From Flaccisagitta enflata (Eukaryota): a DNA stretch of 64,000 nucleotides. The stretch lies in NCBI GenBank assembly GCA_965153355.1, contig OZ231126.1, forward strand, positions 6,696,001 through 6,760,000, in the 5' to 3' direction. Made by a program: the position numbers and the translations under genes. The notes under the pieces were generated by a model. It was not told the DNA's origin and searched no databases. It saw nothing but the letters and a program-made list of their open reading frames with translations. Of this stretch, positions 21,829 through 37,688 are shown piece after piece; the first letter of the stretch is position 1; every line of letters starts with the position of its first letter.

Positions 21829-23334
21829 GACTGTCTTCAGCTTCTTTTTGACGCCCGCTGATGGTGCTGTCTGCTTCTTCTGATGGCACTGTCTGCTTCT
21901 TCTGATGGCGCTGTCTGCTTCTTCTGATGGCGCTGTCTGCTTCTTCTGATGTCGCTGTCTGCTTCTTCTGATGGCGCTGTCTGCTTCATCTGACAGCGCT
22001 GTCTGCTTCTTCTGATGGCACTGTCTGCTTCTTCTGATGGCGCTTTCTGCTTCTTCTTATGGCACTGTCTGCTTCTACGTTGATGGCGCTGTCTGCTTCT
22101 TCTGATGGCACTGTCTGCTTCTTCTGATGGTGCTGTCTGCTTCTTCAAATGGCTCTGTCTGCTTCTACGTTGATGGCACTGTCTGCTTCTTCTGATGGCA
22201 CTGTCTGCTTCTACGTTGATGGCACTGTCTGCTTCTTCTGATGGCACTGTCTGCTTCTTCTGATGGCGCTGTCTGCTTCTTCTGATGGCGCTTTCTGCTT
22301 CTTCTGATGGCGCTGTCTGCTTCTACGTTGATGGCGCTAGGGTGGAAGGTGGTGGTTATGGGTGGATAGAGTTGAGATAGGCCTAGGAGCTTGATAGGTG
22401 GTCATTTAGGGCCAGTGTGAGGGTCGAAGGCGGTGGTTATGGGTGGATAGAGTTGAGATAGGCCTAGGAGCTTGATAGGCGGTCATTTAGGGCCAGTGCG
22501 AGGGTGGAAGGTGGTGGTTATGGGTGGATAGAGTTGAGATAGGCCTAGGAGCTTGATAGGTGGTCATTTAGGGCCAGTGCGAGGGTGGAAGGTGGTGGTT
22601 ATGGGTGGATAGAGGTGAGATAGGCCTAGGAGCTTGATAGGCAGTCATTTAGGGCCAGTGCGAGGGTGGAAGGTGATGGTTATGGGTAGATAGAGTTGAG
22701 ATAGGCCTAGGAGCTTGATAGGCGGTCATTTAGGGCCAGTGCGAGGGTGGAAGGTGGTGGTTATGGGTGGATAGAGTTGATATAGGCCTAGGAACTTGAT
22801 AGGCGGTCATTTAGGGCCAGTGAGCGCTGTCTGCTTCTTCTGATGGCACTGTCTGCTTCCTCTGATGGCGCTATCTGCTTCTTCTGATGGCGCTTTCTGC
22901 TTCTTCTGATGGCGCTGTCTGCTTCATCCAATTGCGCTGTCTGCTCCTTCCGATGGCGCTGTCTGCTTCTTCAAATGGCGCTGTCTGCTTCATCTGATGG
23001 CGCTGTCTACTTCTTCTGATGGCGCTGTCTGCTTCTTCGCTGATGGCGCTGTCTGCTTCTTCTGATGGCGCTGTCTGCTCCTTCTGATGGCGCTGTCTGT
23101 TTCTTCTGATGGCGCTGTCTGCTTCTTCTAATAGCGCTGTCTGCTCCCTCTGATGGCGCTGTCTGCTTCTTCTGATGGCTCTGTCTGCTCCTTCTGATGG
23201 CGCTGTCTGCTTCTTCTGATGGTGCTGTCTGCTTGTTCTTATGGCGCTGTCTGCTACCTCTGATGGTGCTGTCTGCTTCTTCTGATGGCGCTGTATGCTT
23301 CTTCTGATGGCGCTGTCTGCTTCTTCATGGCGCT
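21829..23334. repeat. 22-bp minisatellite (GCTGTCTGCTTCTTCTGATGGC)n, split by an 81-bp array
   Basis: Direct reading; interrupted at 22339-22824. Confidence 0.95.
22339..22824 (-). repeat. Six-unit 81-bp tandem array with flanking CGCT duplication
   Basis: Unit starts at 22339, 22420, 22501, 22582, 22663 and 22744; reverse complement of the unit at 24363. Confidence 0.95.
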
Positions 23335-24362: not shown

Positions 24363-25039
24363 CACACTGGCCCTAATTGGCCACCTATCAAGCTCCTAGG
24401 CCTATCTCAACTATATCCACCCATAACCACCACCTTCCACCCTCACACTGGCCCTAATTGGCCACCTATCAAGCTCCTAGGCCTATCTCAACTATATCCA
24501 CCCATAACCACCACCTTCCACCCTCACACTGGCCCTAATTGGCCACCTATCAAGCTCCTAGGCCTATCTCAACTATATCCACCCATAACCACCACCTTCC
24601 ACCCTCACACTGGCCCACTGGCCACCTATCAAGCTCCTAGGCCTATCTCAACTATATCCACCCATAACCACCACCTTCCACCTCACACTGGCCCTGGCTA
24701 TCAAGCTCCTAGGCCTATCTCAACTATATCCACCCATAACCACCACCTTCCACCCTCACACTGGCCCTAATTGGCCACCTATCAAGCTCCTAGGCCTATC
24801 TCAACTATATCCACCCATAACCACCACCTTCCACCCTCACACTGGCCCTAATTGGCCACCTATCAAGCTCCTAGGCCTATCTCAACTATATCCACCCATA
24901 ACCACCACCTTCCACCCTCACACTGGCCCTAATTGGCCACCTATCAAGCTCCTAGGCCTATCTCAACTATATCCACCCATAACCACCACCTTCCACCCTC
25001 ACACTGGCCCTAATTGGCCACCTATCAAGCTCCTAGGCC
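24363..25039 (+). repeat. 81-bp tandem array (~8.4 units)
   Basis: Near-identical CACACTGGCCCTAATTGGCC...CCACCCT units. Confidence 0.95.
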
Positions 25040-25114
25040 CGTCAATCGTGGCCACCGTCCCTCCCACCTCATATATCTCCAGCGATTTTGACCCTATGGC
25101 TATGGCGCAAAAAT

Positions 25115-26545
25115 CTTATCTGCTGTTGTTATTTCTAGGTTGCCATGGCTCGCCATGCGGCTATCACACCCTTGTAAATCATACTTAAGATATGTCTTAG
25201 CCAGAATGACTGAATGCCGCGAATATACGAGCAAATATTGCTTTGATAGGTACCGGATGTTGAAAAATTAGCATATTTTTTACTCTATTTTTCATAGAAA
25301 AAGTTGATTTTCTACAAGACTACTCGCTAAATATCTTTGAAATTTTTTTCAGATATACTACTAATAATTATCTATCAAGTGCCGTCAAGCTGGAATTTGT
25401 GTCTTAATTCGTATAAGCGCAAGAATTATGCAAAAATTTGAAAAAAAAAAAACATTGTTGCCATTTAAAGCAAATTTGACTCCATGATACAAAAACTACA
25501 TCTTCTGTGGTTGTTTCTGGGTCGCCATGGCTCGCCTCGAGGCTATAGGACCCTTTTACATCATACTTGGGATATGTCCTGGCCAGAATGACTGAATCCC
25601 GCGAATACCAGCGAATATTGCTTTGATAGGTACAGGTTGTTGAAAAATCAGCATATTTTTTACTCTATTTTTGGAAGAAGAAGTTGATTTTCTACAAAAC
25701 TACTTGCTAAAAATCTTTGAAATTTTTATCAGATATACTTCAAATAATTATATATCAAATGCCGCCAAGCTGGAATTTGTGTCTTTATTCGTTTAGGCGC
25801 AAGAATTTTGCAAAAATTAAAAAAAAACATTATTGCCATTTAAAGCAAATTTTACCCCATGATACAAAAACTACAACTTCTGTGGTTGTTTTTGGGTCGC
25901 CATGGCTCGGCATGCGGCTATAAGACCCTAATACATCATACTTGAGATATGTCTTGGCCAGAATGACTGAATCCCGCGAATACCAGCGAAATTTGCTTTG
26001 ATAGGTACAGGTTGTTGAAAAATAAGCATATTTTTTACATTTTTTTTCAAAGAAGAAGTTGATTTTCTACAAAACTACTCGCTAAAAATCTTTGAAATTT
26101 TTATCAGATATACTTCAAATAATTATCTATCAAACGCCGCCAAGCTGGAATTTGTGTCTTTATTCGTTTAGGCGCAAGAATTTTGCAAAAATAAAAAAAA
26201 ACATTATTGCCATTTAAAGCAAATTTTACCCCATGATACAAAAACTACAACTTTTGTGGTTGTTTTTGGGTCGCCATGGCTCGCCATGCGGCTATAGGAC
26301 CCTAATACATCATACTTGAGATATGTCTTGGCCAGAATGACTGAATCCCGCGAATACCAGCGAATATTGCTTTGATAGGTACAGGTTGTTGAAAAATCAG
26401 CATATTTTTTACTCCATTTTTCGAAGAAGAAGTTGATTTTCTAAAAAACTACTTGCTAAAAATCTTTGAAATTTCTATCAGATATACTTCAAATAATTAT
26501 CTATCAAATGCCGCCAAGCTGGAATTTGTGTCTTTATTCGTTTAG
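25115..26545 (+). repeat. ~375-bp tandem array (~4 units)
   Basis: CAAGCTGGAATTTGTGTCT recurs at ~25386, 25766, 26141 and 26515. Confidence 0.92.
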
Positions 26546-27293
26546 CCTGAGCAATTTAATGAAGATTTAAATATTTCGTCCATTCTGTGTTTAAAATATA
26601 CCCCGACTTGAGAGTACATTATCAGCCATTCTGAGTCATTTACGGCCACCAGGCCCAATTTATGGCTTGAATTGCTCATAAAACCATATAAATAAGTAAC
26701 TGAAACCATAATATTCAAAAAATAGGTGGTCACGTATTGGGTCCAAATGCTTGATGCTGAGCCATTGTGATGAGGTAGCCGTGTATCCGGCCTTGTTTTT
26801 TTCAAAAGCGGGCCTTTTTTTTCTCATAGAGATTTTGATTTTCTTCTTTCTTTTTTTCCCCTTCTTTTCTGTCACTTTTCCGCCGTAATCTCGCAACACA
26901 AAAGTCCTGAGAAGTCGCTTCCCATCACGTTTTTTTTTCGCTTCCCATCACTTTTTTGCGCCTCCGTTGCCTCAAGGGAAATACGCTACAAACTTCTTCA
27001 ATTCTTCGGAAAAAAAAAAGAAAAAGAAAAACTGAGGAAGAATTAGACCAAAAAAAGAAAAAAAGGAACAAAAGGAGAAAATATGAAAAAAAAAATGAGA
27101 CCAACTGAAGGAAGGAAAAATGACAAAAAGACAAAGAAAGAAAAACAGCAAATATGTAATAGAGAAAAGATGGAAAACAAACAGAACATGAAGAGGCGAT
27201 GGAAGGACGAGGAGGGAGGGCAAAAAGCTGGTGGATAACGGGTTTTGCTAACCAAAGATTGTTGCAGGTTTTCCTCAGTTAGAAATCCAAGGG

Positions 27294-27742: not shown

Positions 27743-28966
27743 GGCGACACAGTCCATCAAATCCCACCCTGATGGGAAAAAAACACCTAACGCCACTTTA
27801 TCCCACTCCACCCACCTACACAGTCCATCAAATCCCACCCTGATGGGAAAAAAACACCTAACGCCACTTTATCCCACTCCACCCACCTACACAGTCCATC
27901 AAATTCCACCCTGATGGGAAAAAAACACCTAACGCCACTTTATCCCACTCCACCCACCTACACAGTCCATCAAATCCCACCCTGATGGGAAAAAAACACC
28001 TAACGCCACTTTATCCCACTCCACCCACCTACACAGTCCATCAAATCCCACCCTGATGGGAAAAAAACACCTAACGCCACTTTATCCCACTCCACCCACC
28101 TACACAGTCCATCAAATCCCACCCTGATGGGAAAAAAACACCTAACGCCACTTTATCCCACTCCACCCACCTACACAGTCCATCAAATCCCACCCTGATG
28201 GGAAAAAAACACCTAACGCCACTTTATCCCACTCCACCCACCTACACAGTCCATCAAATCCCACCCTGATGGGAAAAAAACACCTAACGCCACTTTATCC
28301 CACTCCACCCACCTACACAGTCCATCAAATCCCACCCTGATGGGAAAAAAACACCTAACGCCACTTTATCCCACTCCACCCACCTACACAGTCCATCAAA
28401 TCCCACCCTGATGGGAAAAAAACACCTAACGCCACTTTATCCCACTCCACCCACCTACACAGTCCATCAAATCCCACCCTGATGGGAAAACACCTAACGC
28501 CACTTTATCCCACTCACCCACCCACACAGTTCATCAATCCACCCTGATGGAAAAAACACCTAACGCCACTTTATCCCCCACTCACCTACACAGTCCATCA
28601 AATCCCACCCTGATGGGAAAAAAACACCTAACGCCACTTTATCCCACTCCACCCACCTACACAGTCCATCAAATCCCACCCTGATGGGAAAAAAACACCT
28701 AACGCCACTTTATCCCACTCCACCCACCTACACAGTCCATCAAATCCCACCCTGATGGGAAAAAAACACCTAACGCCACTTTATCCCACTCCACCCACCT
28801 ACACAGTCCATCAAATCTCCCTAAGCTTGTCCTTGTTCACCTCCTCCCCACCCACCACCAGGTTTTGTTTTCAATATTTTTTTTCTCCTTAACCTCATAA
28901 CTTATCTCTAATTCTATCACCAAAGAAGTATTTATCTTAAAAAAAGTAACTATGAACTATGTCGCC
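27743..28966. mobile_element. Merlin-like non-autonomous element with a 71-bp array
   Basis: TIR GGCGACACAGTCCAT versus the reverse complement of the right end GGCGACATAGTTCAT (13/15); flanks TTTCAGAGG / ATACAGATC match only partly. Confidence 0.55.
27747..28817 (+). repeat. 71-bp tandem array (~15 units)
   Basis: Unit starts at 27747, 27818, 27889, 27960 and onward; nearly identical units. Confidence 0.97.
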
Positions 28967-29076
28967 ATACAGATCGATTCAAAAATTTCTTATATTTGTA
29001 TCTTTTAAATAAGTCACCATCATGTTATAAAAAGAGAAAAATTTTTGTCATCCAAAACAAATGTATGCAATATGTT

Positions 29077-29325
29077 AATAGTCGCAAAAGCGCTAGATGG
29101 TCAGCGGTACCCGTGCCCTGCTAATTAGTTTTGCTTGAAGTTGAAGGGGAACCAGGGCAGCGGCCCGGAAGGGGCCGATGACTGATGCTTTCACACATAT
29201 GTAGAATTTTATCCTTCTCCTCCTCCTCCTACTTCCCTCCACCCTCAAATGAGATTTGGGCCTCAAGGCTGGGATCTGGGCCTTAGGCTAGAATTTGGGC
29301 CTTGAGTCTAGGATTTGGGTCCCAC
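29077..29325 (-). mobile_element. HINE family B, 3' portion
   Basis: AATAGTCGCAAAAGCGCTAGATGGTCAGCGGTACCCG followed by the subTIR. Confidence 0.75.
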
Positions 29326-29447
29326 AATAATTAGCGATCCCACACTAGCAAGATCCACACTATCGAGATCATACTAGCCAGGCCCATACAAGCGCAACCC
29401 ATAGACTAGCCATGGCAACAATTAGCGACTGTTCTTCATTACTGTAA

Positions 29448-29609
29448 AACGAGGCCGGATACACGGCAATCCAGTCGCGGATGGTTGGGCAGGAGCAGTT
29501 TTGCAAAAATTGGTTAGAATTCAGAAATGTGATGGACGGACCGACGGAGGACTGATGGACGGACCGATTGACAATTCAAGGTGTAGAGTCACATGTCCAA
29601 GACTAAAAA
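29448..29609 (-). mobile_element. HINE (A/D-like)
   Basis: AACGAGGCCGGATACACGGC ... AGAGTCACATGTCCAAGACTAAAAA. Confidence 0.7.
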
Positions 29610-29649
29610 CAAGTACGAGTTGAGATATTGATGGTAATCATGTTAGTAT

Positions 29650-29802
29650 GGGCCTGAGAGGACTGATGATGGGCCTGAGAGGGCTGATTTGGGGCCGGAG
29701 AGGTGCCTCCGGGGGAGCGATGGACGGATGGACAGACGGACAACTGGAAATTCACCCATGTGACCTACATGACATTGGCCTTTTGGGGCCGCTGCCCAAA
29801 AA
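29650..29802 (-). mobile_element. HINE family B variant, 5' portion
   Basis: Ends GGGGCCGCTGCCCAAAAA. Confidence 0.65.
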
Positions 29803-29899
29803 GTGCACTAGGACATAACAATACACTGAATAGCTGTTGCATGTGAGAAAGTCGTTGAGAATTTGAAAATATGCCAATACAAGACATCTCTTATCTGAG

Positions 29900-30850
29900 A
29901 CAATAAAAGGACAACTCTAAGGCAGCTTTAGGACAAATCAAGAAACATTCATTACCCTTGACAACCTATGGACAACTTTGGGACAACTCTAAGACAATGG
30001 GAAGACAACTTTAGGACAACTTTAGGACAATTCGGGAACAGCTTTTGGACAACTTCAGGACAACTTTCAGACAACTCAAACAAATCTTTAGGACAACTCT
30101 AGGACAGCTCTGAAATGACTCAAAGACGATTCTAGAACAACTCATCTGAAAAAATGAACCACACTCTTTTAATTGTTTCATTTACTATTGATTAATTTCT
30201 TTTCCTGCTTTGGCTGGTCAAAATACTTGTCTGAATGGGTTATCCATTAAGGATTCCAGTAGAATATTTTTTTCTCTTCTCAGCCCAAGAAGTGACAGAC
30301 TTTTCCAGTTTTCAATCAAGAAAAAAATGAACTTGAAAAAAAATTTGAATCTAGCTAAGACTAAGACAATATAAGCTTCACCTACGCAACAAGTGTTCTG
30401 AGAATTCTCCTATGCTACGATGACTAGAAAAAACTCTGGGACAACTTTAGGAAAATTCTAGGACAACTTAGGGACAACTCGAGGATATCTCTAGGACAAT
30501 TCTTTGTTAACTCTAAAACAACTCCCAGGCTACTCCAATATTTGTAGGATCACACTAAGACAACTCTGAGACAAGTAGGACAAGTAGGACAATTCTTGGA
30601 CAATTCTAGGACAATTCTAGGACAACTCTAAAACAACATAAAGACACTTCTAGGACAATTCCAGGACCACTAAAGTATAATATGGACAACTGTAGGATAA
30701 CTGAAAGACAACTCCAGGGCAAAAGGGATAACTTCAAGACAACTCAAGGACAACTCAAGGACAAATTAAGGACAAATTAAGGACAACTCAAAAACCACTG
30801 AAGGACAACTCATGGACAACTCACAAACAACTCACGGACAAGTCAAGGAC
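29900..30850. repeat. Degenerate ~12-bp minisatellite (TAGGACAACT core)
   Basis: Recurrent GGACAAC/GACAACTC units. Confidence 0.75.
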
Positions 30851-31325
30851 ATACAAAACCTTACAAAAAAAAGAAAACAACAAATCTCCCATAGGCTAAT
30901 TTGTATGATTGAGTAATCAGAAATCAGGATCGTTCTCAGCTCTAACTCAAAACCGCAATCGCGCGCATTACGCACAGCTCTGTGGGTTGAGAATGGAGGA
31001 TTCCAACCCACCGAAACCAGGCAAATCAGTGAAACCTAGGCGAACGGTTAACTTATGTGAAATCCTATATTTATAATGTATTTTTAATGTATTTGTAGTA
31101 ATATTTTCAAGGCATTGATGATTTCGAATCGATTTTTTTTGCAGAAATGAACCATTTGGGGTTAGTAGAAGTGAAAAATCAAACAACTACACTAGGTTGA
31201 AAAAAGTCACATTCTATATTTATTTCCCATCATGGCGGATTGTGGGCGAGGGCGGGAGTCACGGGGGAGGGGCTAAGGTAAGGGTGTAACAAGAATGATA
31301 CCGATAATTCGCAATCTGGAATCCA

Positions 31326-36720: not shown

Positions 36721-37688
36721 AACAAGGCCCACACCTTTAAGTCGCGTGCGGGACATAAATACCTTAGATGACTTAGATTGACTTTAAATAGCTTAAGATG
36801 ACCTAAAATGACTTAAAACAACTTAAAATGACTTAAATGACTAAATTGACCTGACTGACTCACGTGACTTTATATGACTTGATATGACTTAATATGACTT
36901 AGAATGACTTAAAATGACTCAGAATGACTTAGAATGACTTACAATGCCATTTGGGAAGGAACTGTGAGCCCAAAACCTTAAAAACACTGAAAAAGCAAAT
37001 AGTCGCAAAAGCATTAGATCGTCAGCGGTACCCGTGCCCTGCCTAAGTTGGTTGTGGTTAAAGTTGAGGGGGGAGCAGGGCAGCGGCCTCGAAGGGGTCG
37101 ATGACCTATGCTTTCACACATATGGGGGATTTTCTCCTCCTTCTTCTTCTCCTCCTCCGTCCCTCCCCCTCAAATCCCAGTCCCGAGGCCTAAATTCCAG
37201 TCTCGAGGCCCAAATCCCAGTCTTGAGGCCCAAATCCCAGCCTCAAGGCCCAAATTCTAGCCTCAAGGCCTAAATCCTAGCCTGGAGGCTGAGATTTGGG
37301 CCTAAAGGTTGGGATCTAGGCCTCCTGGCTGAGATTTTGACCTTGAGGCTGAGATTTGGGCTTCACGGCTGAAAGCTGGGCCTCCAGGCTAGGATTTAGG
37401 CCTTGAGGCTAGGATTTGAGCCTTGAGGCTGGGATTTGGGCCTCAAGACTGGGATTTGGGCCTCGAGACTGGAATTTGGGCCTCGGGACTGGGATTTGAG
37501 GGGGGTGGACGGAGAAGGAGAAGATGAAGGAAAGCATAGGTCATCGACCCCTTCGGGGCCGCTGCCCAAAAGGGGACCAACCAACCAACCGACCAACCAA
37601 CCGACCAACCAACCGACTAACCAACCGACCAACCAACGGACCGACAAAGCGGGTTGTGGAGTCGCGCAGCACGCGACTAAAAAAAAAG
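36721..37688 (-). mobile_element. HINE subfamily A2 hosting a family B element
   Basis: AACAAGGCCCACACCTTTAAGTCGCGTGCG ... GAGTCGCGCAGCACGCGACTAAAA; internal AATGACTTA repeats. Confidence 0.85.
36997..37571 (-). mobile_element. HINE family B with palindromic interior
   Basis: Tail at 36997-37040, subTIRs at ~37078 and ~37535-37567, and 20-bp repeats in both orientations. Confidence 0.88.

What the first reader, a model, noticed from the sequence alone, without database searches (positions are those of the whole stretch)
22339..22824. Exactly six 81-bp units inserted alone, with a TSD, in the register of a transposon end
The array is 486 bp, exactly 6.0 units, flanked by CGCT on both sides (or GCGCT if 485 bp) inside an otherwise continuous 22-bp satellite. 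On the minus strand it starts at the same unit position (CNCACTGG) that forms the left terminus of the element at 24363. It has no second TIR and carries fixed differences from the 24363 array (CAACTCTA versus CAACTATA; TAAATGACC versus TAATTGGCC), so it is not a simple local copy. Inference: each unit is an iterated transposon end, and whole-number multimers can be cut at unit boundaries or circularised and then re-integrated. That would be a self-mobile satellite, the best candidate for a new system in this window.
Basis: partly seen in the sequence, partly recalled or inferred. Interest (0 to 1): 0.72.

Follow-up and report, generated by a model that had tools for sequence, protein, structure and literature searches.

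The report
Transposon excision scar of repeated ends
This six-unit repeat is most likely what a jumping gene with many stacked copies of one end left behind when it was cut out at an inner copy, a scar made by the same chemistry that joins antibody gene segments, rather than a repeat that jumps by itself.

Summary
In detail: 22339-22824 is 6.0 x 81 bp inside a continuous 22-bp satellite. The unit is the complete left end of a non-autonomous Transib/RAG-type transposon (CAC...GTG ends, 5-bp TSD, ends differing by 10 bp). Whole-unit solo arrays with a TSD are common in this genome. But they look like excision footprints, not mobile satellites. Full elements have clean right junctions (9 of 10). 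Solo arrays mostly carry extra bases palindromic to the array end or to the flank (16 of 18 inserts; 8 of 10 non-array inserts match the flank, which none of 100,000 shuffles reached). So both sides were hairpins: the transposase cut at an inner unit and at the right end, the distal part left, and the outer units were joined to the old flank. The window's TSD is then CAGCG with one base lost, not CGCT. A second, 71-bp family in the window, with RSS23/RSS12-like ends, leaves the same scars. No cognate transposase or full-length allele was found. No description turned up in 10 literature searches, and no relevant earlier finding of this scan.

The parts
22339..22824 (-). Solo array of six 81-bp units, each a complete left end (CAC-type heptamer, spacer, TATCAAGC block) plus a 41-bp tail; the left-behind outer units of an excised element
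22744..22824 (-). Outermost unit, the original left terminus; reads CTCACTGG instead of CACACTGG
22825..22829 (-). Intact 5-bp target copy CAGCG (CGCTG on +) abutting the left terminus
   Evidence: fits the family target preference C...G
22335..22338 (-). Second target copy lacking its first base (AGCG); the repaired joint CCACCCT|AGCG, where AG is also the palindrome of the array end
21858..22338 (+). Host 22-bp minisatellite, left half
22825..23334 (+). Host 22-bp minisatellite, right half
24363..26769 (+). Full non-autonomous element of the same family (another subfamily): 8.4-unit 81-bp array, 375-bp array, right TIR ending GCCATTGTG; flanks TGAGG and A+TGAGG
24363..25039 (+). 81-bp array of the full element, ending at phase 40 where the body begins
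26748..26769 (-). Right TIR (reverse complement starts CACAATGG); its second block lies 10 bp closer to the end than in the left end
27748..31244 (+). Second family with the same design: 71-bp iterated left end (RSS23-like), right end RSS12-like, TSD GGCGA on both sides

Best explanation
The array is the excision footprint of a non-autonomous Transib/RAG-type transposon whose left end is repeated in tandem. Steps: (1) A full element (n left-end units, body, one right TIR) inserted into the 22-bp satellite at CAGCG with a 5-bp TSD. Inferred for this site, shown for the family. (2) The transposase later paired the right TIR with the CAC of an inner unit, here the one after the sixth surviving unit, and cut out everything from there to the right TIR as a shorter, normal transposon. 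Inferred. (3) Both broken chromosome ends, the last outer unit (...CCACCCT) and the old right flank, were sealed as hairpins, opened off-centre and joined by end joining, leaving palindromic bases or small losses. The junction pattern is shown across the genome; the hairpin chemistry is established for Transib and RAG. At this site the AG overhang of the array end plausibly paired with the AG in the TSD after loss of one C. (4) Some units were duplicated or homogenised in place, since 4 of 6 share a CGC start found nowhere else. A whole number of units follows automatically from the two fixed end phases.
For: Parent element with perfect 5-bp TSD and no added bases at the right TIR in 9 of 10 testable copies, versus 6 of 24 solo arrays with an exact TSD (Fisher p=0.0015). 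Exact 5-bp TSD at 24 of 44 distinct solo arrays; permutation mean 0.85, maximum 6 of 10,000. Of their 18 inserts, 4 are palindromic to the array end only, 8 to the flank only, 4 to both and 2 to neither. The 8 of 10 flank matches among non-array inserts were never reached in 100,000 shuffles (mean 2.3). 21 of 44 right junctions begin AG. After the unit end T the next non-C base is A in 58 of 92 matches. In the 71-bp family, whose unit ends in A, it is T in 48 of 56, and 14 of 20 inspected junctions begin TA. Of those 20, 9 have an exact TSD with inserts TG, A, A, TATGG, TAGTT, T, TA, TATAGG, G. Inner junctions carrying AG or A between units (L070, L086, L087, L095, L169, L184) look like cut-and-rejoined inner ends. 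The window's variant is private. RAG1-like transposase sequence is in the genome.
Against: No allele or paralogue was found with the full element at the site of a solo array (shared left junctions link only solo to solo or deleted to deleted). The read overlay could not test this. 20 of 44 solos, the window's included, lack an exact 5-bp TSD; the window junction alone fits a 4-bp TSD equally well. Four of the 8 flank palindromes are one base long, and L094 (AGCG) can also be read as array AG plus flank CG. The window's terminus is CTC, and no full element with that terminus was found. Two loci with different targets (L048, L109) share one composite array and the same unusual right end (...ATCCACT), and the parent junction that the model needs was not seen in the fetched loci. 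No autonomous partner was tied to the family. The 44-array set was chosen largely by a pattern that excludes C after the boundary.
Confidence: 0.82

Rival explanations
1. Self-mobile solo arrays: whole-unit pieces are released by cuts at two same-orientation ends, or as circles, and are inserted at new sites by one-ended strand transfer or captured into breaks.
For: Integer units, precise CAC end and TSDs. Array-side palindromes fit a released piece with one hairpin end. L048 and L109 share a composite array and the same unusual end at two different targets.
Against: Strand transfer does not hairpin the target, yet flank-side palindromes match each locus's own TSD (8 of 10). Right-junction inserts differ from locus to locus. 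The window's CGC variant has no second site. No right-end-to-left-end (circle) junction of the element in the assembly (0 matches; weak). Full elements of matching subfamilies exist to supply donors.
Confidence: 0.08
2. Interrupted gap repair or slippage: after complete excision, repair copied only part of the element from a sister or homologue, or a deletion ran from the array into the flank.
For: 15 of 50 non-body ends in the two samples lie at other phases; L111 keeps its TSD but ends at phase 11. Gap repair of donor sites is established (PMC5499845, passages).
Against: It predicts ends at any phase and no palindrome of the array end; 35 of 50 ends cluster at the boundary and 21 of 44 start with AG. 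The window array ends exactly at the boundary.
Confidence: 0.07
3. Assembly artefact or chance placement within a satellite.
For: The host is a tandem repeat, and no contig spanned the junctions in 4 runs.
Against: Both junctions match a pattern seen at dozens of unique-flank loci. The six units differ from each other by 1-5 bases and carry a private variant.
Confidence: 0.03

Closest known systems
Non-autonomous Transib elements (PMC1131882; passages and the TIR section read)
   Same: CAC...GTG ends, CACAATG-like heptamer, 5-bp GC-rich TSD, ends differing by about one helical turn; the 71-bp family also has an A-rich nonamer at 23 and 12-13 bp.
   Different: Here the whole left end is repeated 1 to more than 30 times and inner copies are used. 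The 81-bp family lacks the AA nonamer. No cognate transposase was identified.
V(D)J deletional joining and coding joints (PMC8355894 and PMC5499845, passages; P nucleotides recalled)
   Same: One of several same-orientation 23-type ends is paired with a single 12-type end; the DNA between is removed; the hairpinned outer ends are joined imprecisely.
   Different: Germline selfish DNA in an invertebrate-type genome; the excised piece is a transposon; no coding segments; RAG2 not looked for.
MULEs with tandem or extra TIRs (PMC3310237, passages)
   Same: Whole TIRs duplicated in tandem; the authors suggest that an inner TIR may sometimes be used.
   Different: Two copies rather than long arrays; a different superfamily; in the passages seen, inner-TIR use is a hypothesis and no left-behind footprints are described.
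Satellites derived from transposon ends or carried in MITEs and Helentrons, e.g. Tetris TIR-220, Xstir, miDNA4, Cg170 (reviews PMC12628747, PMC9659126, passages)
   Same: Tandem repeats inside non-autonomous elements and as stand-alone arrays.
   Different: The passages seen explain stand-alone arrays by decay of ends, recombination or rolling-circle error, not by transposase cutting at an inner repeat.

Membership tests
Transib superfamily | 5-bp target site duplication | tested here: met
   9 of 10 testable full elements exact; 71-bp element GGCGA
Transib superfamily | Termini begin CAC, heptamer like CACAATG | tested here: met
   10 of 10 full-element left ends CAC; right end CACAATG, left CACACTG. 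The window array's own terminus is CTC.
Transib superfamily | A-rich nonamer with AA at positions 5-6 (81-bp family) | tested here: not met
   CT, TA or AG at spacers 22-24; TT or TG at 11-13. So the 81-bp family is called Transib/RAG-type, not filed as a member.
Transib superfamily | A-rich nonamer with AA at positions 5-6 (71-bp family) | tested here: met
   AA at spacers 22-23 (left) and 12-13 (right)
Transib superfamily | 12/23-like asymmetry of the two ends (some families) | tested here: met
   The shared second block lies 10 bp further in on the left end in both families
Transib superfamily | GC-rich targets | tested here: met
   145 of 220 TSD bases are G or C against 31-49% GC across the window
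Transib superfamily | Mobilised by a RAG1-like transposase from an autonomous element with the same TIRs | tested here: inconclusive
   RAG1-like ORF L188 (Pfam PF12940 1.6e-12; PDB 6b40 2.7e-13), but no TIR pair or meaningful similarity to the element at 7 candidate loci
Transib superfamily | Hairpins formed on flanking DNA | tested here: met
   Indirect only: palindromic inserts on both sides of the joint
RAGL transposons | RAG1L-RAG2L gene pair inside the TIRs | not tested
   RAG2L was not searched; the elements seen are non-coding
RAGL transposons (protostome) | AAA at TIR positions 8-10 (PMC7204232, passages) | tested here: not met
   GCC or GCT in the 81-bp family, CAT or CGC in the 71-bp family
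   Flank palindromes in 8 of 10; private variant confined to the window; one ambiguous pair, L048 and L109
   Needs Circle-seq or inverse PCR

The most novel reading that the evidence does not exclude
Some whole-unit arrays without a right TIR are themselves moved by the Transib/RAG-type transposase (released between two same-orientation ends and put into new sites or into other elements' donor breaks), making a satellite that spreads on its own; L048 and L109 would be the first example.
Probability: 0.08. Interest if true: 0.8.

Novelty: new variant of a known kind. Interest (0 to 1): 0.5.

Why it matters
If right, two transposon families in one genome have the layout of a V array facing one J: many tandem 23-type ends and one 12-type end. 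One end is chosen per event, and the outer units stay behind joined by a coding-joint-like scar. That is a natural germline example of RAG-type chemistry acting on tandem signals, and a concrete route by which cut-and-paste transposons seed stand-alone minisatellites of whole-number length with TSDs. It also warns that an array with a TSD and no second TIR need not be mobile. The dozens of scars give a ready data set on hairpin opening and end joining in an invertebrate-type germline. Spare inner ends might rescue elements whose outer end has mutated (5 of the 6 units here start CTC or CGC), but that is inference from one locus.

Tried and rejected
Autonomous partner: a RAG1 profile search gave 2 matches and a protein search 6. 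None of 7 loci read over 15-19 kb had a qualifying TIR pair or more than two short weak matches to the element; two other long ORFs had no RAG1 Pfam hit. Helitron reading of the end CCCTAG: rejected, because the base after AG is not T and a TSD is present. A right end for the 24363 element at 26546 with CTGAG repeats: rejected, the true end is 26769. Local hop from this site to 24363: rejected (5 fixed unit differences; body about 75% identical to the L031/L033 type). A CTC-terminus subfamily with full elements: 10 matches, 3 termini (window and one paralogue pair, all solo), 7 inner variants. Enrichment of dead (non-CAC) inner starts in solo arrays generally: weak at most (15 of 202 against 1 of 105), and CGC is confined to the window. 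Blunt joints to C-starting targets missed by my main pattern: 26 matches, 13 loci read, none with a blunt exact TSD and at least 6 inner variants. Circle or tandem-dimer junctions: 0. Public runs: 17 listed, all contigs; 4 laid, no piece spans the stretch and unit-derived contigs from all copies pile up, so alleles could not be told. Earlier findings: none in this genome, none by words, one unrelated phage note. Literature: 10 searches found no description of such footprints; the library lacks most subscription papers and repeat databases, and no supplements were read.

Full report
Observation. The stretch 22339-22824 is 486 bp, six ungapped 81-bp units, with CGCT on both sides and the 22-bp satellite in register across it. 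On the minus strand it reads cagacagcg|CTCACTGG...CCACCCT|agcgccatc. The units start CTC, CGC, CGC, CGC, CGC, CAC and differ pairwise at 1-5 positions. The 24363 array differs at 5 consensus positions, while full elements L107 and L169 differ at 2.

The parent element. A search of the own genome with two units gave 121 matches, a lower bound, and the unit-start motif occurs 2,232 times. Many arrays continue at phase 40 into a shared body with a 375-bp repeat and end in GCCATTGTG; that right end occurs 42 times. Of 10 copies with both ends in view, 9 have an exact 5-bp TSD with nothing added: L031, L033, L036, L045, L063, L107, L166, L169, L201. The window copy at 24363-26769 has one extra A. 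The two ends share CACA(C/A)TGG and a TCAAGC block that lies 10 bp further in on the left. These are Transib/RAG-type traits (PMC1131882, passages and the TIR section; PMC7204232, passages). The 81-bp family lacks the AA nonamer, so I call it Transib/RAG-type without filing it as a member. Each 81-bp unit holds one complete left end.

Solo arrays are common and end at the boundary. In the BLAST sample, 48 arrays split into 14 continuing into the body, 26 ending near the unit boundary and 8 elsewhere. In a chromosome-1 sample taken from the first 100 listed matches, 22 arrays split 6, 9 and 7. Paralogues and interrupted pieces are counted separately. A pattern for unit ends not followed by C gave 92 matches; the next base is A in 58, G in 18, T in 16. 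Of 81 distinct ends read at that stage, 20 were inside arrays.

The right junction tells what happened. One search listed 49 arrays with a precise left end and a complete last unit. Five rows were dropped: L063 (a full element), L052 and L111 (inner positions), L066 and L070 (repeat junctions). That leaves 44; L048 stayed in although its junction later proved internal. An exact copy of the 5 bases left of the CAC end lies within 6 nt of the right end in 24 of 44 (permutation mean 0.85, maximum 6 of 10,000). Six are blunt; of 18 inserts, 4 are the reverse complement of the array end (A, AGGGT), 8 of the start of the TSD (G|C three times, TG|CA twice, TC|GA, T|A, AGCG|CGCT), 4 of both and 2 of neither. 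Among the 10 inserts that the array end cannot explain, 8 match the flank; 100,000 shuffles averaged 2.3 and never reached 8. Against this: 20 of 44 lack an exact TSD, and four of the eight flank matches are a single base. Of those 20, 10 begin AG and 3 keep four of the five TSD bases, the window among them. Transib and RAG leave hairpins on the DNA flanking a cut end, which host enzymes open and join imprecisely (PMC5499845 and PMC8355894, passages; that this yields palindromic P nucleotides is recalled). Palindromes on both sides therefore mark a joint between two flanks of cut ends: the last outer unit, flanking an inner CAC, and the old right flank, flanking the right TIR. That is a donor site. 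A new insertion would not hairpin the target, and full elements are indeed clean (9 of 10 against 6 of 24; p=0.0015).

The window's site under this model. The target is CAGCG, matching the family preference (C first in 25 of 44, G last in 29 of 44). It is intact at the CTC end and lacks its first C at the joint, where AG is both the array's palindrome and part of the TSD. Taken alone this junction also fits a 4-bp duplication; the family decides the reading. The CGC unit start is private to this array (3 of 3 matches), so some units were copied in place and the array has no known offspring or source with that variant. A CTC terminus occurs here and in one paralogue pair, all solo; whether it arose before or after insertion is open.

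An independent family repeats the pattern. The 71-bp array at 27748 is the left end of an element that ends at 31244 with TSD GGCGA and has RSS23-like and RSS12-like ends with AA nonamers. Its unit ends in A, so the model predicts T next: 48 of 56. C-to-T changes inside arrays could mimic this, so I read 20 of the 56, the first separate loci in list order. Nine have an exact TSD (two of them paralogues) with inserts TG, A, A, TATGG, TAGTT, T, TA, TATAGG and G; 6 have none (three of them paralogues), 2 are internal and 3 have the left end out of view or unclear.

What remains open. No full-element allele or paralogue of a solo site was found, and contigs of 4 of 17 listed runs could not resolve alleles. 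L048 and L109 carry the same composite array at different targets and end at the same unusual point; both joints fit local hairpin repair, but the parent junction was not seen in the fetched loci. This keeps the mobile-array reading alive at about 0.08. A RAG1-like ORF exists but was not tied to either family. No right-to-left end junction was found.

Comparison and verdict. The closest precedents are non-autonomous Transib elements, V(D)J deletional joints, MULEs with tandem TIRs where inner-TIR use was only suggested (PMC3310237, passages), and end-derived satellites (PMC12628747, PMC9659126, passages). Ten searches found no account of long iterated ends leaving whole-unit footprints; other papers were seen only as listings, no supplements were read, and the library is incomplete.

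Noticed in passing
window 27748-31244: Second Transib-type non-autonomous family with a 71-bp iterated RSS23-like left end, RSS12-like right end and TSD GGCGA; it leaves the same solo-array scars elsewhere in the genome.
   Followed up: yes
L087-L093 (G000:C8:2406900-2410850), L184, L169, L171: Arrays whose units carry an extra AG (83 bp) or A (82 bp) at the unit junction, amplified in place; they look like inner ends that were cut and rejoined.
   Followed up: partly
L048 and L109/L070, also L100: Composite of 81-bp array, CA-rich spacer and second array at several sites; L048 and L109 end at the same phase-58 point with different targets.
   Followed up: partly
L037:2189-2848: A different CAC...GTG element with a 5-bp duplication (CACTG) is inserted into the second unit's start of an 81-bp array.
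   Followed up: no
L063: Full element with a single unit joined by a short deletion directly to the body, TSD TAACG intact.
   Followed up: no
L188:1480-2619 (G000:C6:12746544-12747683): 380-aa open stretch similar to the C-terminal half of RAG1/RAG1L; no TIRs found within about 8 kb.
   Followed up: partly
L206-L207 (984-aa ORF), L214-L215 (771 aa), L208 (397 and 465 aa): Long ORFs weakly similar to L188 (E about 1e-3 to 1e-6), without a RAG1 Pfam hit in the two parts tested; possibly other transposase families.
   Followed up: partly
window 24363-26769: The full element has one extra A between its right TIR and the TSD copy, the only imperfect case among 10.
   Followed up: no
window 37171-37498: A 20-bp repeat array switches orientation near 37285, giving a long imperfect palindrome.
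   Followed up: no
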